From a virus: a stretch of DNA of 6,466 nucleotides. The stretch spans positions 1 to 6,466 of IMG/VR virus record IMGVR_UViG_3300045988_018413; one strand, written 5' to 3'. Made by a program: the position numbers and the translations under genes. Below the pieces are notes generated by a model. It did no database searches. It had not been told where the DNA came from and was given only the letters and a program-made list of their open reading frames with translations. Positions 1 through 6,466 of the stretch are shown here, one piece after another; within the stretch, counting starts at the first letter, position 1, and each line of letters starts with the position of its first letter.

Positions 1-55
1 CTACGAAGATCCAGAGAAGGAGAAAGGCCGATACTGGATGATTTTGTCACAGTAG
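1..55. repeat. Terminal direct repeat, copy 1 (assembly overlap of a circular genome)
   Basis: Bases 1-55 (ctacgaagatccagagaaggagaaaggccgatactggatgattttgtcacagtag) are identical to 6412-6466. The repeat lies inside one continuous reading frame, the capsid gene. A 55-nt overlap matches a common de Bruijn assembler k-mer size. Confidence 0.95.
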
Positions 56-560
56 CATTAGACGGAAGAAAATTACCATATCGAAGATACATTAATAACT
101 TTGCCGACTGAGTTAATGAATTGAATCCAAGAAAATTAGAAAAATCCTTGGCACTATCGTAATAAAGGGCATTAATACCATTCAAACTTGAATAGCCGGT
201 ACCACTAATGGTAGTCCAAGGAATGTCTGTAGTCACGACCTTGTTTGAAGACAGTCCGGTAGCCTGAACAGGATTGTCCTGCATTTGCATCAAGGCGGTG
301 GGTAAATTCTTGTTAATCAGACGAAGGGGCACAAAATAGAAATCCAAGTATTCACGAATACGAGTATAAGCAGCCGTGTTCAATGGCTGAGTACGAGTAA
401 AAAGCTGAGTTTTAATTTTAAAAGAATCACCAGGGTAAACAATATCCCAGAACACAGGGAGTAGCTCACCAGCCTTACTGGTGAAACATACCCTATTAGA
501 TAAGTCGAAACCGGAACGTCTGGGATGATTTTTCACGGCCGACATGTTAAATAAGCTCAT
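1..560 (-). CDS. VP1: Major capsid protein VP1 (phiX174 F-like), N-terminal part; continues across the circular junction into 6411->5121
   Basis: Not in the ORF track because it runs off the window edge. Manual translation from the ATG at 560..558 gives MSLFNMSAVKNHPRRSGFDLSNRVCFTSKAGELLPVFWDIVYPGDSFKIKTQLFTRTQPLNTAAYTRIREYLDFYFVPLRL... with no stop down to base 1. It is in frame with the 5121..6461 ORF: the GTG at 6461 equals base 50, and 560-50=510, a multiple of 3. This N-terminal pattern is characteristic of Microviridae major capsid proteins. The joined gene is 1851 nt, or 616 aa. Confidence 0.93.
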   Translation of the reverse strand, partial: MSLFNMSAVKNHPRRSGFDLSNRVCFTSKAGELLPVFWDIVYPGDSFKIKTQLFTRTQPLNTAAYTRIREYLDFYFVPLRLINKNLPTALMQMQDNPVQATGLSSNKVVTTDIPWTTISGTGYSSLNGINALYYDSAKDFSNFLGFNSLTQSAKLLMYLRYGNFLPSNATVTKSSSIGLSPSLDLR

Positions 561-2665: not shown

Positions 2666-3030
2666 ATCTTTTCATATTTTTCTTCACAATTTTTTTAACC
2701 GGTATCTCAGTGTCACTTTTGCATATTTAGGATAAAGGGGTTGAATCAGGGAATGGAGAAACCTGATTCCCATTCGGGCAAAAGTGTAGGCTACGCTAAA
2801 TTCTCCATGTACGCGGCTTCGCCAAACGACGTTTAAAGGACAACAAATCCTTCGGACCGGAACAGTAAAGAAATTCTTAACGGCTTCTAAGGAAGCCTAA
2901 ATTCCTTTCCTATTCCTTTTGTTTTTTGTTATCCGACCTGTGGTCGGCGCTCCGCTTGTAGACCTTCGGTCTGTTCCGGGCGCAGCATCGCGCCCTACAC
3001 GGAACCTAACGTGAATGAACATGACGTAAT

Positions 3031-3041
3031 GGATGTTTACG
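3031..3041. repeat. 11-nt direct repeat GGATGTTTACG, copy 1
   Basis: Exact match to 3129-3139. It abuts the hairpin at 3043-3057. Confidence 0.8.
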
Positions 3042-3128
3042 GGTCAACTCCGTTGACGGCGTGGACCGTGGTTAACATAATGCAAAGGAAGAGTGCCGCA
3101 AGAGTAAGAGATATACTTAAGGGCGCTG

Positions 3129-3139
3129 GGATGTTTACG
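3129..3139. repeat. 11-nt direct repeat GGATGTTTACG, copy 2
   Basis: Exact match to 3031-3041, 98 nt away. It overlaps the start of the hairpin at 3138-3149. Confidence 0.8.
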
Positions 3140-3385
3140 CGATTCCGCGACACGGACTTCGTCCGGCGCTCTCACTGCGTTAATGGTGTCCTTCGGACAG
3201 TGTCAAAGGGCTGTAAAAACAGCCCTAAAAGAACAAAATGCAATTATCATAAACCAGATGGTAAGGAAGGGGTACAGATTGATAAGGGAAAGAAGACTTA
3301 CAATAAAAAGTAACCTTACTATCAGGATAATACTTGCGGAGACTATTTAAAGATAAATAACATTTAAAAATGTCAATCGAGTCAG

Positions 3386-3421
3386 AACGCAAAAATCCCT
3401 TCCAGCATAAACCGGAAGGGA
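3386..3421 (-). terminator. Rho-independent terminator after VP2
   Basis: The minus strand reads T-CCCTTCC-GGTTTATGCT-GGAAGGG-A-TTTTTGCG. This is an 8-bp stem (3396-3403 / 3414-3421) followed by a T-run (3395->3391). It starts 9 nt after the VP2 TAG stop. On the plus strand the stem is not followed by a T-run. Confidence 0.55.
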
Positions 3422-3430
3422 AATTAATAA

Positions 3431-4657
3431 CTAGAGACCGGCAGCTTTGCCGACCTTTTTAAATGATCCTACTTTACTACCTAAATAAAGCGGACCAGCA
3501 ATGCTACCTACACTTCCAAGGATACCTTTAAGAAATTCCTCTATATTGTAATATATAGGATTGTTCTTCCAAGATGATTTTTCACGATCTTTAAAGATTT
3601 CAGACATATATGCAGCAATACGGGCGGCATTGGATTCATACCGAGCCTGAGTAGCTTTAGACATACCAGCCTGCCAAGCGTCATTGTAAAAGCCATTGTA
3701 ATAAGCAGCATTAGCACGGTACTCGGCAGCCATAGCTTTAAACTGATAATCAGCCAATCTTTCAGCCAGTCTGTTATTAAGCTTCTGACCAGCAGCCTGA
3801 GCCTCAAGGAGAGCCTGCTGTTTAATCTGGGTCTTTACCTGAGCTTCTGAAAGCTTACCAGCCTTATACTGAGCAAAGGCATTAGCGGTTTTCAGGAAAA
3901 ATTCAGCCTGCTGTTGAGCGGGCATAAATTTATTAACTATTCTCTGACCTTCAGCTTGAAGTCCAAGAAGAGCACCTTGAGCAAGAGCTACTTTAATATT
4001 CGTCTCAGTTGAGAGATTTTCCAGACGCTTTTTACGCAAATCGATTCCAAGCAAGTTGGGTGCTTCGTTCTGACGACCTAACTTATACACATCGGTAAGC
4101 CATTCAGAATTACCTCCAATTTTCGACATAATGTCAGCTTTCATCAAATCATCTCCATAAGCACTTGTCAGTCTGGCATCAATGCCACTAGCAACAGCGC
4201 TACCTATCTGTGCTATACCAGAAGCTACATTCTGAAAATCAGCAGCATATCCAGTATAAGCCGGAAGACTAGGCGTATGAGAAGCAGTGGCCGGAGAACC
4301 AGAACCAGGAGACGACTGGGCGCCAGACGTAGAACCAGATCCGGGATCTATATTCATATTATAGGGATTAAAGCCGGCAGCTTCCATACGGGCACGTTGT
4401 GCAGACGGATCATTATATGCGTTTTCACGGTTCCATTGGTCCAAATTCCATTGTTGCGAGGCTTCACGTTCAGAGGTCTGAAAATCACGATTTTTTAACG
4501 CTTCCGAAGCATTAAATTCATTATTGATTTGATTGATCTCTTTAGCGGCTTTAATGGAACGCTTTACAGACTTATTGGACATTCCGGAACCGAGAAAACC
4601 AGTCAGAGCAGAAAGGCCACCAGTAGCAAGGGTGGCCGTTCCAGGATCAACTGGCAT
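3431..4657 (-). CDS. VP2: Minor capsid / DNA pilot protein VP2 (phiX174 H analogue)
   Basis: 408-aa ORF. It begins with a Gly-rich hydrophobic N-terminus (ATLATGGLSALTGFLGSGM). It carries the block typical of Microviridae VP2 proteins: NNEFNASEALKNRDFQTSEREASQQWNLDQWNRENAYNDPSAQRARMEAAGFNPY. A G/S-rich linker follows, then a long Ala/Gln-rich probable helical region. Confidence 0.85.
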   Translation of the reverse strand: MPVDPGTATLATGGLSALTGFLGSGMSNKSVKRSIKAAKEINQINNEFNASEALKNRDFQTSEREASQQWNLDQWNRENAYNDPSAQRARMEAAGFNPYNMNIDPGSGSTSGAQSSPGSGSPATASHTPSLPAYTGYAADFQNVASGIAQIGSAVASGIDARLTSAYGDDLMKADIMSKIGGNSEWLTDVYKLGRQNEAPNLLGIDLRKKRLENLSTETNIKVALAQGALLGLQAEGQRIVNKFMPAQQQAEFFLKTANAFAQYKAGKLSEAQVKTQIKQQALLEAQAAGQKLNNRLAERLADYQFKAMAAEYRANAAYYNGFYNDAWQAGMSKATQARYESNAARIAAYMSEIFKDREKSSWKNNPIYYNIEEFLKGILGSVGSIAGPLYLGSKVGSFKKVGKAAGL

Positions 4658-5109
4658 TATTCAGCAGCTTTTCCAGAATCACCAGTCGCCTCAGACTGCT
4701 GATTGGTTTGTATTGATTCCGTGAGTGCATCAAGCTCAGAGCGGATAGAGTCTCCTGCTGATCCAAGGGATTCAATCCAAGCAAGGACTTCGGAAGGAGT
4801 TTGTATAAACCGAGATTTAATTGCTGTAAACAATTGTTCGTCTGTATATTTATTATCATACGGAGATTTTTTAGGCTGTATTCCACGAATAAGATTCAGG
4901 TACGATTCTTCACCAATCTGGTTACGAAGACGTTCGGCATTCATAAGGAGGTTAACATCTGAAACATAATGAATTACTCCATCATCATCTTTTATATAAC
5001 GAAGTCTTTCGACAGGACCAACCTGACAGTAAATCGCAGATTTTAAAACCCTAACAGAATCCAGCACAGGGGTTTCAATTATCTTATCTTTTTTTTCTTC
5101 TTTTTCCAT
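4657..5109 (-). CDS. 150-aa acidic protein between VP1 and VP2; possible internal scaffolding (VP3-like) protein
   Basis: ATG-initiated ORF 11 nt after the VP1 stop. Its TAA stop shares one base with the VP2 ATG (TAATG at 4659->4655). The ends are acidic and charged (MEKEEKKDK..., ...QQSEATGDSGKAAE), and the size is typical of Microviridae scaffolding proteins. The function is inferred from size, position and composition only. Confidence 0.7.
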   Translation of the reverse strand: MEKEEKKDKIIETPVLDSVRVLKSAIYCQVGPVERLRYIKDDDGVIHYVSDVNLLMNAERLRNQIGEESYLNLIRGIQPKKSPYDNKYTDEQLFTAIKSRFIQTPSEVLAWIESLGSAGDSIRSELDALTESIQTNQQSEATGDSGKAAE

Positions 5110-5120
5110 AGTGACAAAAA

Positions 5121-6466
5121 TTAATAAGGCATTCCATCGTAATCGAAGTTACGGACAGCCTTAATATCCATATACAAAGCGGTTAAGAACTGATCGGTAT
5201 CGATTGCATCATCACACTTAACATTAAAAATACTATCCAAAACACGGGGATTTACTTTAAAGAAACCATAGTTCAGATTTAAAGACAACTTTCCAGTAGA
5301 AGTTACAGAAGTATATAACCATTTAGACAAATCAGCAGGGTTCAACGGAGCGACCCAATTCTTAAGAGTCGAACGGAAAGCACCAAGAACCTCGTCGTAA
5401 CGGGTCTTTACATCGAAAAAGCGGGGAAGATATCCCATAGTCTGGGTACGATAATCTATGCCGGAAGTCCATCCAACATTTCTACTATTCACAAAACGAC
5501 CAAACTGGATAGTTTGCATACCAATACTATCAAATTCCGGAAAAGGAAGATCCGCAGTATTTGTATAAAGAAGATTCTGGGGTTGTCCGGTAATCACATA
5601 ATCCAAGAGAGGTACATTATGATAAATACCAATAATAATACCATACTCATCGAATTGACCAGAAAAACTACCTTGACCGGTACCAACACCTTTACCAGCA
5701 ATTTCGGCAACATTATCACCGGTAATATTAGTATTGACTACTTCCGAAAGATCGATATTAGAACTAGAGCCTCCAAGATACATACACTTATCTGAAAGAA
5801 CAGGGCTTAAAGATACACCAAAATGCGCCATAATCTGACCACGTGCATCCTGATCAGCAAACTGAGATACTTCACGGTACTTTTGTACAGCCTCTGCCAT
5901 ACGAAGCTGAAGTATAGAGAAAGAAGAGCCTAATCCAGCAACCTGTTGTGCATAAACACCATATTTAGTAGAAGCAGAAAGAATACTTGTAGTATGCATT
6001 TCCACAGGAGAATCAGCAGAAGGAGCAGAACCAGAGACAGCAGTCAATCCGGCACGTATTTTACCGTCAGTCAAATCAAACAATCCAACAGGGAAAGTTC
6101 CTTCGGATCCAGAGGTATCAACAATACTTACATCACCAAGCTGAGAATCAGGCATTACTCCCATAAACATATCCTTCGGCCAGTTGGCGTAACGAAGAGT
6201 AAAAAGGTTATCATCGGAATAATACTTCTCTGCAAGAGCTGTAGTAGTTAAAGATGCAAGAACATTTCCTCCAGAATACCAATCAAAATTGTAAGTGTAA
6301 GGCTGGTTTTTTTCCCACTGAGTAAAACGAAAAAAGTCAGCGTAAGCTTTTTGATAAGCAGCAAGGGGGAGAATGTGAACTGAAGTCCAACCGTTAGAAG
6401 AAGTATCTGAACTACGAAGATCCAGAGAAGGAGAAAGGCCGATACTGGATGATTTTGTCACAGTAG
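5121..6466 (-). CDS. VP1: Major capsid protein VP1, C-terminal part (unique sequence 5121..6411; 6412-6466 repeats 1-55)
   Basis: 446-aa ORF in the track. Its apparent M start is an in-frame GTG (Val) created by window truncation. It contains the conserved Microviridae capsid block SILQLRMAEAVQKYREVSQFADQDARGQIMAHFGVSL...MYLGGSS. Stop TAA is at 5123..5121. Confidence 0.93.
   Translation of the reverse strand, partial: TVTKSSSIGLSPSLDLRSSDTSSNGWTSVHILPLAAYQKAYADFFRFTQWEKNQPYTYNFDWYSGGNVLASLTTTALAEKYYSDDNLFTLRYANWPKDMFMGVMPDSQLGDVSIVDTSGSEGTFPVGLFDLTDGKIRAGLTAVSGSAPSADSPVEMHTTSILSASTKYGVYAQQVAGLGSSFSILQLRMAEAVQKYREVSQFADQDARGQIMAHFGVSLSPVLSDKCMYLGGSSSNIDLSEVVNTNITGDNVAEIAGKGVGTGQGSFSGQFDEYGIIIGIYHNVPLLDYVITGQPQNLLYTNTADLPFPEFDSIGMQTIQFGRFVNSRNVGWTSGIDYRTQTMGYLPRFFDVKTRYDEVLGAFRSTLKNWVAPLNPADLSKWLYTSVTSTGKLSLNLNYGFFKVNPRVLDSIFNVKCDDAIDTDQFLTALYMDIKAVRNFDYDGMPY
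6412..6466. repeat. Terminal direct repeat, copy 2 (duplicate of 1-55)
   Basis: Exact 55/55 identity with 1-55. Removing one copy gives a 6411-nt circle. Confidence 0.95.

What the first reader, a model, noticed from the sequence alone, without database searches (positions are those of the whole stretch)
2815..3199. Five hairpins share one triloop that reads C-GAA-G on the gene-sense (presumably packaged) strand, including an exact GCGAAGC
The plus-strand hairpins are ggc-ttc-gcc (2815-2823), tcc-ttc-gga (2848-2856), agacc-ttc-ggtct (2960-2972), cggac-ttc-gtccg (3153-3165) and tgtcc-ttc-ggaca (3187-3199). On the minus strand all are stems closed by C:G around a GAA triloop, and 2822->2816 reads exactly GCGAAGC. 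A sixth, 3043-3057, reads GTCAAC-GGA-GTTGAC, again C-GNA-G. Random expectation for at least 3 bp around one fixed triloop in 480 nt is about 0.1. d(GCGAAGC) and related C-GNA-G mini-hairpins are known as unusually stable DNA structures. As I recall, the phiX174 viral strand has CCCC-GAA-GGGG just 3' of its gpA origin. Microviridae package the mRNA-sense strand, so these would form in virion ssDNA. Stem complementarity is perfect only in the 3-nt-loop register, which argues for DNA hairpins over RNA C(UUCG)G tetraloops on the opposite strand.
Basis: partly seen in the sequence, partly recalled or inferred. Interest (0 to 1): 0.7.

Follow-up and report, generated by a model that had tools for sequence, protein, structure and literature searches.

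The report
DNA mini-hairpin array near replication genes
The non-coding stretch of this small single-stranded-DNA gut phage holds a conserved set of unusually stable G-N-A-looped DNA hairpins on the packaged strand, which most likely mark where the host starts copying the incoming strand, as in the classic phages G4, St-1 and alpha3.

Summary
All five C-TTC-G hairpins and the sixth (TCC loop) lie at the stated coordinates. Five of the six such hairpins in the 6410-nt genome fall within 385 nt; shuffles give about 0.05.

The window is a complete circular microvirus with every gene on the minus strand, so the loops read C-GNA-G on the gene-sense strand, which is by general knowledge the packaged one.

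The hairpins belong to a conserved, modular non-coding element: block 1 (2709-2789), an optional insert (about 2799-3015) and block 2 (3016-3210). It lies between the late-gene terminator and the replication-gene operon.

In relatives the stems covary. The loops keep G and A while the middle base takes all four values, and some become GNNA (GTTA, GATA, GAAA). That is the published rule for DNA mini-hairpins, not for RNA GNRA or UNCG loops.

Across 69 related genomes, non-coding C:G-closed triloop hairpins carry GNA on the sense strand 37 times and on the antisense strand once.

The phiX174 comparison is correct (CCCCGAAGGGG at 4331-4341).

The function is inferred, not shown. The best reading is a single-strand origin for complementary-strand priming, with block 1 possibly the Rep origin. 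The finding is real and a new variant of a known kind.

The parts
2709..2789 (-). Block 1, the most widely conserved module. On the sense strand it reads P1 5' arm CACTTTTG (2786-2779), P2 mini-hairpin, P3 hairpin, about 22 nt of pyrimidine-rich single strand, then P1 3' arm CAAAAGTG (2721-2714) followed by ACAC.
   Evidence: It is present on the sense strand in every relative examined with Rep identity of about 37-100%, and in further genomes down to about 25-29%. P1 covaries: ACTTTTA/TAAAAGT in L153 and ACTTTCG/CGAAAGT in L164. P3 covaries many times: AATCAGG, AATCGATG, AAGCGAAG, TTTCGAAG, AAACGATG.
2769..2778 (-). P2 of block 1. It reads CCC-GAAT-GGG on the sense strand here and is the orthologue of CCC-GAA-GGG in relatives.
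   Evidence: Loops at this one position across lineages are GAA, GTA, GGA, GCA, GAAA, GGTA, GTTA, GATA, GAAT and GTAT. The stem varies among CCC/GGG, TCC/GGA and TGC/GCA.
2744..2768 (-). P3 hairpin of block 1 (AATCAGG / CCTGATT).
   Evidence: It shows compensatory changes in most lineages.
2799..3015 (-). Optional insert module of GC-rich hairpins. It is absent from many relatives.
   Evidence: The distance from block 1 to block 2 is 19-33 nt in 13 relatives, 86 in L008, 166 in L002 and 244-245 in the window and five others. The insert is 99.5% identical to that of L014, whose Rep is only 48% identical in amino acids.
2815..2823 (-). Mini-hairpin GGC-GAA-GCC, which contains the exact heptamer GCGAAGC.
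2848..2856 (-). Mini-hairpin TCC-GAA-GGA. In L016 the loop is GTA.
2882..2897 (-). Hairpin GGCTTC-CTTA-GAAGCC. It does not have a GNA loop.
2933..2947 (-). Hairpin CCGACC-ACA-GGTCGG.
   Evidence: The stem becomes CCGGCC/GGCCGG in L016.
2960..2972 (-). Mini-hairpin AGACC-GAA-GGTCT. In L008 and L016 the loop is GAAT.
2978..2995 (-). Hairpin GGGCGC-GATGCT-GCGCCC.
3016..3210 (-). Block 2, a conserved multi-hairpin module.
   Evidence: On alignment A5 of 24 distinct sequences, 95.5% of cells pair, against 24-41% when the partners are slid. Ten pairs change on both sides, and 0 of 500 shuffles reach the observed values. About 70 nt are identical in L145/L146, where Rep is 50% identical.
3025..3041 (-). 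Hairpin Ha: CGTAA / TTACG with ACATCCA in the loop.
   Evidence: In four sequences one pair is a G.T wobble on the sense strand.
3031..3041 (-). Copy of the direct repeat GGATGTTTACG, which reads CGTAAACATCC on the sense strand.
   Evidence: Exact 11-nt repeat D8. Both copies are conserved in block-2 relatives, with one-base variants in L028, L032, L131 and L150.
3043..3057 (-). Mini-hairpin Hb: GTCAAC-GGA-GTTGAC.
   Evidence: The loop is GAA in most relatives. The stem becomes GTCAGC/GCTGAC in three and GTCAATC/GATTGAC in L150.
3129..3139 (-). Second copy of the direct repeat GGATGTTTACG.
3137..3180 (-). Branched domain. Helix Hd (3137-3140 with 3177-3180) encloses helix He (3147-3149 with 3167-3169) and mini-hairpin Hf.
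   Evidence: Hd shows two adjacent pairs swapped between GC and CG in 7 of 24 sequences. He shows CG changed to AU in 5 of 24.
3153..3165 (-). Mini-hairpin Hf: CGGAC-GAA-GTCCG.
   Evidence: The loop is GTA in L150, GGA in L131 and AAA in L009. The hairpin shrinks to the 2-bp forms AC-GAA-GT and GC-GTA-GC in L016, L021, L148 and L025.
3187..3199 (-). Mini-hairpin Hg: TGTCC-GAA-GGACA.
   Evidence: The loops seen are GAA, GCA and GTA. A base pair is deleted on both sides (TGCC/GGCA) in L016, L025, L148 and L150. The stem is TGTGC/GCACA in L131.
3207..3226 (-). Hairpin Hh at the upstream (sense) border of the element: AGGGCTGT-TTTT-ACAGCCCT.
   Evidence: It is fully compensated in the bajarodmic viruses and L151 (AGCCTGGT.../...ACCAGGCT), where a T run follows it, giving the form of a terminator.
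3396..3421 (-). Intrinsic-terminator-like hairpin with a T run after the pilot-protein gene. It marks the upstream limit of the non-coding region.

Best explanation
The hairpins are DNA, not RNA, structures. They are C-GNA-G mini-hairpins that form in the gene-sense strand, which by general knowledge is the packaged single strand of this microvirus. Together with other covarying helices they make up a modular, cis-acting replication region. It consists of block 2 with an optional insert, followed by block 1, and lies between the late-operon terminator and the Rep operon.

Proposed mechanism. When the single strand enters the cell, the G(N)NA loops nucleate hairpins that fold fast and are very stable. 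These hairpins stay free of single-strand-binding protein and so leave a fixed folded landmark with short conserved single-stranded segments, for example the twice-repeated AAACATCC. A host priming enzyme, either primase or RNA polymerase, recognises this landmark and lays down the primer for complementary-strand synthesis. This is the same logic as at the G4, St-1 and alpha3 origins, RSF1010 ssiA, and the single-strand origins of rolling-circle plasmids. Block 1 travels with the Rep family and exposes a pyrimidine-rich single strand, so it may instead or also be the site where Rep nicks.

What is shown: the hairpins exist, they are conserved, their stems covary, the loop rule is G(N)NA, and the bias to the sense strand is strong. 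What is inferred: that the sense strand is the packaged one, that the structures form in DNA, and every step involving SSB, priming or Rep.
For: Enrichment: five hairpins against about 0.05 expected. As single-stranded DNA the sense strand of 2700-3260 folds with z = -5.9. Two coding controls of the same length give +0.45 and -0.15.

Covariation: on the 24-sequence block-2 alignment 95.5% of cells pair, ten pairs change on both sides, and 0 of 500 shuffles match. The P1 and P3 helices of block 1 also covary.

Loop rule: G and A stay fixed while N varies at six independent hairpins. GNA interchanges with GNNA at single orthologous positions. P2 shows GAA, GTA, GGA, GCA, GAAA, GGTA, GTTA and GATA. 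A hairpin in distant relatives, AGCC-loop-GGCT, shows GAA, GTA, GTTA, GTAA, GTCA and GCCA. The mini-hairpin review reports that only GNA among the 64 triloops forms the DNA mini-hairpin, that GCGNNAGC does so too, that such hairpins bind SSB poorly, and that they occur at the G4 (GCGAAAGC) and St-1/alpha3 (GCGTTAGC) primer sites, in RSF1010 ssiA and in N4 promoters (PMC13037366).

Two-base-pair forms, GC-GTA-GC and AC-GAA-GT, are kept at the Hf position. They are plausible only as DNA mini-hairpins.

Strand bias: in 69 non-redundant genomes of this Rep family, 37 of 72 non-coding C:G-closed triloop hairpins carry GNA on the sense strand and 1 carries it on the antisense strand. In the distant subset the counts are GNA 16 to 0 and GNNA 20 to 2.

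Position: the element lies downstream of a terminator. In the L145 prophage it sits at the opposite end from Rep, so it is not an obligatory Rep 5' leader.

Cassette behaviour like plasmid single-strand origins: block 2 and the insert are present or absent among relatives and have been exchanged between phages whose genes are only about 72-77% identical in nucleotides.

Control: the G4 record annotates its primer template over CGGC-GAAA-GCCG.
Against: No experiment or read-level data show which strand is packaged, that the hairpins form, or where priming starts.

The stems are Watson-Crick on both strands, and wobble counts do not settle the strand: 15 G.T on the sense strand against 8 that would be G.T on the antisense strand. 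One position, 3096 paired with 3061 or with the GCGCC arm, is G.U on the antisense strand in most sequences.

There is no CTG within 10 nt 3' of any GNA hairpin in the window, unlike G4 (read from the sequence).

Some loops are GAAT or GTAT, which lie outside the published GNA/GNNA rule. One relative has AAA.

Three of the five flagged hairpins lie in a dispensable insert.

The ViennaRNA DNA parameter set carries no triloop bonus, so the claimed extra stability comes only from the literature.
Confidence: 0.5

Rival explanations
1. The element, above all block 1, is the viral-strand origin. The helices, formed in single strands or extruded as a cruciform from supercoiled duplex DNA, present the pyrimidine-rich linker of block 1 as single-stranded DNA for nicking and re-joining by the Rep protein. 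The GNA hairpins then act as stable clamps, like CCCC-GAA-GGGG beside the phiX174 origin.
For: Block 1 follows this Rep family down to about 25-29% identity, always on the sense strand, upstream of Rep in every case where its position was checked, while block 2 is patchy. That pattern matches plasmids, where the double-strand origin stays with its Rep and single-strand origins are swapped. The asymmetric linker of about 22 nt carries a semi-conserved motif of the type CTCTTGTCC or CTCTCGTCC. phiX174 has a C-GAA-G hairpin 25 nt 3' of its nick.
Against: The nick site of this Rep family is unknown and no similarity to the phiX174 30-nt origin was established. The linker differs in the window itself (CCCCTTTATCC). 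This reading accounts for block 1, not for the five flagged hairpins in block 2 and the insert. Block 2 is nearly identical between phages with 48-50% identical Reps, which suggests a host factor rather than Rep.
Confidence: 0.15
2. The region encodes a structured RNA: either a leader or trailer of the sense-strand mRNAs, or an antisense non-coding RNA read from the plus strand.
For: Both strands fold better than shuffles as RNA, with z = -3.5 for plus and -5.0 for minus. Covariation cannot by itself distinguish RNA from DNA. One pair behaves like G.U, G-C or A-U on the plus strand. Terminators in small phages often leak.
Against: No Rfam family reaches its threshold; the best match is 18.8 bits against a gathering score of 44. 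There are no tRNA or tmRNA genes. On the plus strand the loops would be UNC and UNNC, which are not known stable RNA loops. The C(UUCG)G register breaks the stems, and closings such as CUUCGU and CUUCGA occur. On the sense strand most 4-nt variants (GUUA, GAUA, GUCA, GCCA) are not GNRA. Hairpins with 2-bp stems would not be stable as RNA. The element lies between a terminator and the Rep-operon promoter region, and in the L145 prophage it is separated from Rep. The plus-strand hairpin at 3207-3226 is not followed by a U run.
Confidence: 0.12
3. The hairpin modules are selfish or neutral recombining cassettes, or serve genome condensation, packaging, or protection from nucleases and defence systems, with no role in starting replication.
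For: The insert is optional, and it is 99.5% identical between genomes whose genes are only about 72-77% identical in nucleotides, which indicates recent transfer. Mini-hairpins resist nucleases (PMC13037366).
Against: No terminal inverted repeats or clean insertion boundaries were seen. Block 1 and block 2 are kept over deep divergence, with compensatory changes and a fixed position and orientation. A simple protective role would not need conserved single-stranded motifs such as the repeated AAACATCC.
Confidence: 0.1
4. The folded single strand is an attachment site or accessory for integration by the host XerC/XerD recombinases at dif, as in phage CTXphi.
For: The clade includes a prophage, L145, flanked by a 19-bp direct repeat inside dif-like sequence and located in the same non-coding region. 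Dif-type integration is reported for Bacteroidetes microviruses (PMC3091885). Window 3069-3082 resembles a XerD arm.
Against: In L145, L146, L150 and L151 the att core TATAAATTATAGGACA lies downstream of block 1, about 100-145 nt where measured, and outside the hairpin modules. The window has block 1 and block 2 but no such core. The XerD-like stretch is in a variable loop and is not conserved.
Confidence: 0.03
5. The hairpins are a chance or compositional artefact.
For: The region is locally GC-rich, about 0.5 against about 0.4 elsewhere.
Against: None of 5000 dinucleotide-preserving shuffles reached the observed count. The hairpins are conserved, covary and show strand bias in dozens of genomes.
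Confidence: 0.01

Closest known systems
Complementary-strand origins of phages G4, St-1 and alpha3 (Microviridae, Bullavirinae), which depend on primase
   Same: Both are non-coding hairpins on the viral strand of a microvirus. The key hairpin is capped by a G(N)NA loop closed by C:G: G4 has CGGC-GAAA-GCCG inside the annotated primer template, and St-1 and alpha3 have GCGTTAGC (PMC13037366). The loop GTTA also occurs at block-1 P2 in L146 and at a hairpin in distant relatives.
   Different: No sequence homology was seen. The window carries six GNA-looped hairpins, plus GAAT-looped relatives, spread over about 430 nt, rather than three hairpins in about 140 nt. No CTG start triplet lies next to them in the window. 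The host is probably in Bacteroidota, whose primase preference is unknown. The element lies next to the Rep operon, not between the coat and spike genes. Priming has not been shown.
DNA mini-hairpin motif d(GCGNAGC) / d(GCGNNAGC) (Hirao, Yoshizawa and colleagues)
   Same: The window holds the exact heptamer GCGAAGC at 2822->2816. The loops are G-N-A with all four N, closed by C:G, and interchange with GNNA. Two-base-pair forms GCGTAGC and ACGAAGT occur in relatives.
   Different: Stability was not measured here. The loops GAAT, GTAT and one AAA fall outside the rule.
Single-strand origins (ssoA, ssoU and others) of rolling-circle plasmids, and the RSF1010 ssiA signal
   Same: All are strand-specific, highly structured non-coding cassettes of 150-500 nt placed next to a rolling-circle Rep gene and exchanged between replicons with different Reps. 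ssiA contains a CCGAAGG mini-hairpin (PMC13037366).
   Different: There was no match to 72,556 plasmids. The ssoA motif TAGCGT occurs once, at 2797-2802, but is not conserved in relatives. The priming enzyme is unknown.
phiX174 viral-strand origin region
   Same: CCCC-GAA-GGGG lies on the viral strand 25 nt 3' of the gpA nick. Block-1 P2 is CCC-GAA-GGG in most relatives.
   Different: In phiX174 the origin lies inside gene A and no role is established for that hairpin. Here the element is non-coding and no nick site is known.
Conserved hairpins upstream of Rep in roodoodoo- and reekeekeeviruses (PMC9865509)
   Same: They are uncultured microviruses with conserved, compensated hairpins next to Rep, proposed but unproven as complementary-strand origins.
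   Different: They belong to different clades and carry one or two hairpins. No G(N)NA loop rule or strand-bias analysis is mentioned in the passages I read.

Membership tests
DNA mini-hairpin d(C-GNA-G) / d(C-GNNA-G) | Three-nucleotide loop G-N-A with any N, or four-nucleotide loop G-N-N-A | tested here: met
   The window has GAA five times and GGA once. Orthologues show GAA, GCA, GTA and GGA, and also GTTA, GATA, GAAA and GGTA. Exceptions are GAAT, GTAT and one AAA.
DNA mini-hairpin d(C-GNA-G) / d(C-GNNA-G) | Closing pair with C on the 5' side and G on the 3' side | tested here: met
   All six in the window have it. Among sense-strand non-coding GNA triloops in 69 genomes the closings are C-G 37, A-T 5, T-A 4 and G-C 0.
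DNA mini-hairpin d(C-GNA-G) / d(C-GNNA-G) | Extraordinary thermal stability and nuclease resistance of the DNA oligonucleotide, with a sheared G.A pair | not testable with these tools
   This needs melting, exonuclease or NMR experiments. The ViennaRNA DNA parameters hold no triloop bonus.
G4-type primase-dependent complementary-strand origin | Non-coding hairpins on the packaged strand | tested here: inconclusive
   The hairpins are non-coding, conserved and on the gene-sense strand. That this strand is the packaged one rests on general knowledge of Microviridae.
G4-type primase-dependent complementary-strand origin | CTG primase start triplet just 3' of the key hairpin | tested here: not met
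   G4 has ...GCCGCCGTCCCTA-CTG-C at the annotated start. No CTG lies within 10 nt 3' of any GNA hairpin in the window (read). Distant relatives do have AGCC-G(N)NA-GGCT-ATAGTA-CTG-C.
G4-type primase-dependent complementary-strand origin | Primer RNA made by primase on SSB-coated single-stranded DNA | not testable with these tools
   This needs biochemistry.
Rolling-circle plasmid ssoA | Conserved RSB and CS-6 (TAGCGT) motifs | tested here: not met
   TAGCGT occurs once on the sense strand, at 2797-2802, and is replaced by TTAGTGAAG or TATGAAATC in relatives. There was no plasmid match. RSB was not searched.
RNA C(UNCG)G tetraloop hairpins on the plus strand | Four-nucleotide loop UNCG closed by C-G, with the stem continuing in that register | tested here: not met
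   In the 4-nt register the next pair is C:U or C:A in every case. Orthologues read CUUCGU and CUUCGA.
Any Rfam RNA family | Score at or above the family's gathering threshold | tested here: not met
   The only hit is PrrB_RsmZ at 18.8 bits against 44, E = 0.47.
CTXphi-type folded single-stranded attP / dif site | Dif-like XerC/XerD sites within the folded element | tested here: not met
   The att core of L145/L146 lies downstream of block 1, and the window has none.
Phage N4 virion-RNA-polymerase promoter hairpins | A virion RNA polymerase that reads GGA- or GAA-looped DNA hairpins | tested here: not met
   Only Rep, pilot and capsid proteins matched PHROGs; the 150-aa scaffold-position ORF and three small ORFs matched nothing. 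No ORF is long enough for such a polymerase.

The most novel reading that the evidence does not exclude
G(N)NA-capped DNA mini-hairpins on the packaged strand are a general, selectable DNA-level code in a large clade of uncultured gut microviruses that infect Bacteroidota. They mark interchangeable single-strand-origin cassettes (block 2, the insert and their analogues) placed beside a Rep-linked origin module (block 1). If so, the packaged strand and both replication origins of metagenomic single-stranded-DNA phages could be predicted from sequence alone, and an uncharacterised priming pathway in Bacteroidota would become accessible.
Probability: 0.35. Interest if true: 0.7.

Novelty: new variant of a known kind. 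Interest (0 to 1): 0.62.

Why it matters
Where and how complementary-strand synthesis begins is known only for a few coliphages (phiX174, G4, St-1, alpha3). For the gokusho- and alpa-like microviruses that dominate gut viromes it is unknown.

This element offers a concrete candidate with exact coordinates, a simple sequence rule (C-G(N)NA-G on the sense strand, in non-coding DNA) and natural variants. Several things follow.
- The question becomes directly testable with oligonucleotides and cloned fragments.
- The rule gives a sequence-only way to call the packaged strand and the replication region in metagenomic genomes.
- It is a rare case where comparative data point to selection on a DNA fold rather than an RNA fold.
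- Replication modules appear to be swapped between otherwise divergent phages.

Tried and rejected
- An Rfam scan at E <= 1 and a tRNA/tmRNA scan found nothing usable.
- The sigma-70 promoter and terminator scan gave only the terminator at 3396-3421. Its promoter count was no higher than in shuffles.
- The UNCG tetraloop reading was rejected because of the register.
- The plus-strand ORF 3011-3313 (100 aa) had no PHROG hit, and close relatives differ by 1-nt indels inside it, so it was rejected as coding.
- Deciding the strand from G.T against A.C counts in supported helices was inconclusive, 15 against 8.
- RNAalifold proposed a long-range plus-strand stem (AGGGCGCU with GGUGUCCU). I rejected it because it competes with hairpin 3187-3199, which is supported by the deletion of a base pair on both sides.
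- ViennaRNA DNA parameters have no GNA bonus, so they cannot score the motif.
- The pattern CACTTTTGC...CAAAAGTG was too loose for the viral collection and gave mostly chance hits.
- The 16-mer TATGCAAAAGTGACAC in genome contigs gave 80 hits, none with the rest of block 1, so no host was identified this way.
- The plasmid search found no match.
- The dif-like stretch at 3069-3082 and the single ssoA-like TAGCGT are not conserved.
- The MAFFT alignment of block 1 misaligned P2 and P3, so I built no covariance model and examined block-1 sequences with patterns and single-sequence folds instead.
- I ran no further search on naming the host genus of the L145 prophage.
Full report
**What the window is.** The 6466 bases are a complete circular microvirus genome of 6410 nt with 56 nt repeated at the ends; 1-56 equals 6411-6466.
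- All recognisable genes lie on the minus strand. They are the major capsid protein (5121-6410, continuing past the junction), a 150-aa ORF at the position of the scaffold gene (4657-5109; no PHROG match), the pilot protein (3431-4657), a 532-aa replication initiator (801-2399) and small ORFs.
- A terminator-like hairpin with a T run follows the pilot gene at 3421->3396.
- From there to the small ORF ahead of Rep (2636) lie about 790 nt without convincing coding capacity.
- The middle of this stretch is GC-rich, about 0.5 against about 0.4 elsewhere.

**Check of the observation.**
- Of the six C-TTC-G hairpins (at least 3 bp) in the genome, five lie in 2815-3199.
- Dinucleotide-preserving shuffles of that segment give a mean of 0.05 and never reached five in 5000 trials.
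- The C-TNC-G count is 6 against 0.14, and the count for stems of at least 5 bp is 3 against 0.004.
- CTTCG occurs five times and CGAAG never in the non-coding region. In the coding remainder the counts are 7 and 12.
- Folded as single-stranded DNA, the sense strand of 2700-3260 has z = -5.9. Two coding segments of equal length give +0.45 and -0.15.

**Relatives and anatomy.** GenBank holds related faecal microviruses, Dulem virus 265/266 and bajarodmic viruses 273/502. Pattern and protein searches added about 20 close and about 70 more distant genomes. The non-coding region resolves into three modules.
- Block 1 (window 2709-2789). On the sense strand it is an 8-bp helix P1 (CACTTTTG/CAAAAGTG) that encloses a mini-hairpin P2, a hairpin P3 and about 22 nt of pyrimidine-rich single strand, and it ends in GTGACAC.
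- Block 2 (3016-3210). It holds hairpins Ha, Hb and Hg, a branched domain Hd/He/Hf, and two copies of GGATGTTTACG (CGTAAACATCC on the sense strand) 98 nt apart.
- The insert. The distance from block 1 to block 2 is 19-33 nt in 13 relatives, 86 in L008, 166 in L002 and 244-245 in the window and five others. The insert of about 217 nt, which carries three of the five flagged hairpins, is therefore optional.

**Structure is under selection.** On an alignment of 24 distinct block-2 sequences, a structure of 42 pairs has 95.5% of cells paired, against 24-41% when the partners are slid. Ten pairs change on both sides, and no shuffle of 500 reaches the observed values. Examples:
- GTCAAC/GTTGAC becomes GTCAGC/GCTGAC or GTCAATC/GATTGAC.
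- TGTCC/GGACA loses one pair on both sides (TGCC/GGCA) or becomes TGTGC/GCACA.
- Two adjacent pairs of Hd swap between GC and CG in seven sequences.
- He changes from GCG/CGC to GAG/CTC.
- In block 1, P1 changes to ACTTTTA/TAAAAGT (L153) and ACTTTCG/CGAAAGT (L164). P3 takes at least seven complementary forms.

**The loop rule.** While the stems change, the loops read on the gene-sense strand keep G and A and vary only in the middle.
- Hg: GAA, GCA, GTA.
- Hb: GGA, GAA.
- Hf: GAA, GTA, GGA (and once AAA).
- Hairpin 2848-2856: GAA, GTA.
- Block-1 P2: GAA, GTA, GGA, GCA, also GAAA, GGTA, GTTA, GATA, and GAAT and GTAT.
- At the Hf position some relatives keep only a 2-bp hairpin, AC-GAA-GT or GC-GTA-GC, with an A-T to G-C compensation.
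- In relatives whose Rep is 27-35% identical and whose non-coding DNA is otherwise unrelated, one orthologous hairpin AGCC-loop-GGCT shows GAA, GTA, GTTA, GTAA, GTCA and GCCA. Other groups show CGGC-GGA/GAA-GCCG, GCAC-GGA-GTGC and TGCGC-GGA-GCGCA.

This matches what the mini-hairpin review describes for DNA. Of the 64 possible triloops in GCNNNGC only GNA forms the mini-hairpin, for every N, and GCGNNAGC forms it as well (PMC13037366). It does not match RNA. Most of the 4-nt variants are not GNRA. The plus-strand reading gives UNC and UNNC loops. The C(UUCG)G register breaks the stems.

**Strand bias.** I took 69 non-redundant genomes of this Rep family, oriented them by Rep, and masked coding sequence crudely.
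- Non-coding triloop hairpins (at least 4 bp) closed by 5'C and 3'G number 72.
- Of these, 37 have GNA on the sense strand and one has it on the antisense strand.
- Other closing pairs are rare for sense-strand GNA: A-T 5, T-A 4, G-C 0 (the labels of the antisense rows in that output are mirrored).
- In the distant subset alone (37 kb non-coding), GNA is 16 to 0 and GNNA is 20 to 2. The pentamer background predicts 43% sense (P about 2e-6). In 322 kb of coding sequence the bias is weak for GNA (17 to 8) and runs the other way for GNNA (8 to 24).
- These counts include orthologous hairpins, so they are not all independent events. They do come from several unrelated sequence groups.

**Strand and molecule.**
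- Watson-Crick stems fit both strands, and wobble counts do not decide: 15 G.T on the sense strand against 8 on the antisense.
- One pair behaves as G.U, G-C or A-U on the plus strand.
- The case for sense-strand DNA therefore rests on four things: the loop rule, the strand bias, the 2-bp hairpins, and the general fact, not tested here, that microviruses package the mRNA-sense strand.
- Position adds to this. The element lies after a terminator. In the bajarodmic viruses and L151 the border hairpin Hh is itself followed by a T run.

**Prophage relative L145.**
- L145 sits in a 43-kb contig whose flanking genes include a TonB-dependent receptor, DUF3078 and gyrA. This points to Bacteroidota but does not prove it.
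- The same Rep protein also occurs on a 6386-nt phage-length contig, L146, which matches L145 end to end.
- Integration is at a 19-bp repeat, TATAAATTATAGGACAAAT, inside dif-like sequence. Here it lies about 100 nt downstream of block 1, between block 1 and the Rep operon.
- The element therefore ends up at the far end of the prophage from Rep.
- This fits the Xer/dif route proposed for Bacteroidetes microviruses (PMC3091885).
- It shows that the hairpin modules are neither the attachment site nor an obligatory Rep leader.
- The window has no such att core.

**Module exchange.**
- L012, L014, L015 and L016 have Reps only 48-49% identical to the window's.
- Against L014, all genes reach only about 72-77% nucleotide identity over partial matches. 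Yet the insert is 99.5% identical and block 2 is 95% identical.
- L145/L146, with Rep 50% identical, share about 70 nt of block 2 exactly.
- Block 2 is absent from L142 (Rep 60%) and L152 (38%). Block 1 persists down to about 25-29% Rep identity.
- The result is a Rep-linked module beside interchangeable structured cassettes. This is the pattern known from rolling-circle plasmids, where the double-strand origin stays with its Rep and single-strand origins are swapped. That comparison rests on my own knowledge of the plasmid literature.

**Comparison with the known cases.**
- The phiX174 record has CCCCGAAGGGG at 4331-4341, 25 nt 3' of the annotated origin of viral-strand synthesis, and no C-GNA-G hairpin of at least 3 bp on the complementary strand.
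- The G4 record annotates the primer template at 3970-3997, which contains CGGC-GAAA-GCCG followed by CCGTCCCTA-CTG.
- According to the review, St-1 and alpha3 have GCGTTAGC at the same place, RSF1010 ssiA has CCGAAGG, N4 early promoters have GGA or GAA hairpins, and mini-hairpins bind SSB poorly.
- The window's hairpins share the loop, the closing pair, the strand and the non-coding setting. They lack an adjacent CTG and share no sequence with G4.
- A hairpin in the distant relatives is followed by ATAGTACTGC, which resembles G4's TACTGC.
- Conserved compensated hairpins upstream of Rep have been suggested, without proof, as complementary-strand origins in other uncultured microviruses (PMC9865509).

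**Verdict.** The finding is real, far beyond chance, and conserved.
- The most likely function is a cis-acting replication region. I take block 2 and the insert to be a single-strand origin for complementary-strand priming, and block 1 to be possibly the Rep origin.
- That function is inferred by analogy. My confidence is about 0.5 for the priming role. The remainder is spread over a Rep-origin role, an RNA role and non-replicative roles.
- I class it as a new variant of a known kind: the mini-hairpin principle of the G4-type origins, here as a multi-hairpin, modular, exchangeable element in a different microvirus lineage and probably a different host phylum.

Noticed in passing
window 1-56 and 6411-6466: The window is a complete circular genome of 6410 nt with a 56-nt terminal redundancy from assembly. 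The capsid gene runs across the junction.
   Followed up: partly
L145 9725-16096 (attL core 9736-9754, attR core 16069-16087); L146: A relative with 50% Rep identity is integrated in a 43-kb bacterial contig between a TPR-protein gene and a short-chain dehydrogenase gene. It is flanked by the 19-bp repeat TATAAATTATAGGACAAAT within dif-like sequence (TTAACATAA-TATAAA-TTATAGGACAA). The same Rep protein also occurs on the 6386-nt contig L146, which matches the prophage end to end. The window itself lacks this att core.
   Followed up: partly
L146 about 6280-6330 (sense strand, between block 1 and the att core): TTTG-N19-TAGTTTTG matches the Bacteroides promoter consensus TTTG...TAnnTTTG, which I recall from memory. 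Integration at the att core would cut this promoter off from the Rep operon, which could be a simple switch for lysogeny. I did not find an equally good match in the window.
   Followed up: no
window 2799-3210 compared with L014, L012, L015, L016: The non-coding insert and block 2 are 95-99.5% identical between genomes whose genes are only about 72-77% identical in nucleotides (Rep 48% in amino acids). This implies recent recombination that moved the non-coding module, or the genes around it.
   Followed up: partly
window 3031-3041 and 3129-3139: The exact 11-nt direct repeat GGATGTTTACG (CGTAAACATCC on the sense strand) is conserved in both copies in block-2 relatives, with one-base variants in a few. 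One copy is in a hairpin loop and the other in a predicted single-stranded joint. L153, which lacks the rest of block 2, keeps one TAAACATCCATT. L152 has CCGTAAAAAA repeats instead. The repeat could be a binding or priming site.
   Followed up: partly
L172, L176, L180, L182 and others, e.g. L172 2076-2097: In relatives with about 33% Rep identity a conserved non-coding hairpin AGCC-G(N)NA-GGCT is followed by ATAGTACTGC. G4 has CCCTACTGC at its annotated primer start, so this could be a primase start site.
   Followed up: no
window 3225-3392 (minus strand); L002 2656-2823; L001 2565-2840: A small sense-strand ORF lies between the pilot gene and the hairpin element: 55 aa with a TTG start in the window, and 55 aa annotated in the bajarodmic viruses. 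In Dulem virus 265 a 91-aa ORF at this position is annotated as 'replication initiator protein', which looks doubtful. In the window the ORF begins after the terminator-like hairpin.
   Followed up: no
L026 about 33-330 (sense strand): One relative carries a tandem duplication of about 100 nt covering the first repeat copy and hairpin Hb.
   Followed up: no
window 3069-3082: GGTTAACATAATGC resembles the XerD arm of dif (TTATGTTAA). It lies in a variable loop and is not conserved in relatives, so it is probably chance.
   Followed up: yes
L001, L008-L011, L016, L018 and others, about 10-20 nt 3' of block 1 (sense strand): Many relatives have one more mini-hairpin there, GGATTC-GAA-GAATCC (GGA in L008). 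The window lacks it.
   Followed up: partly
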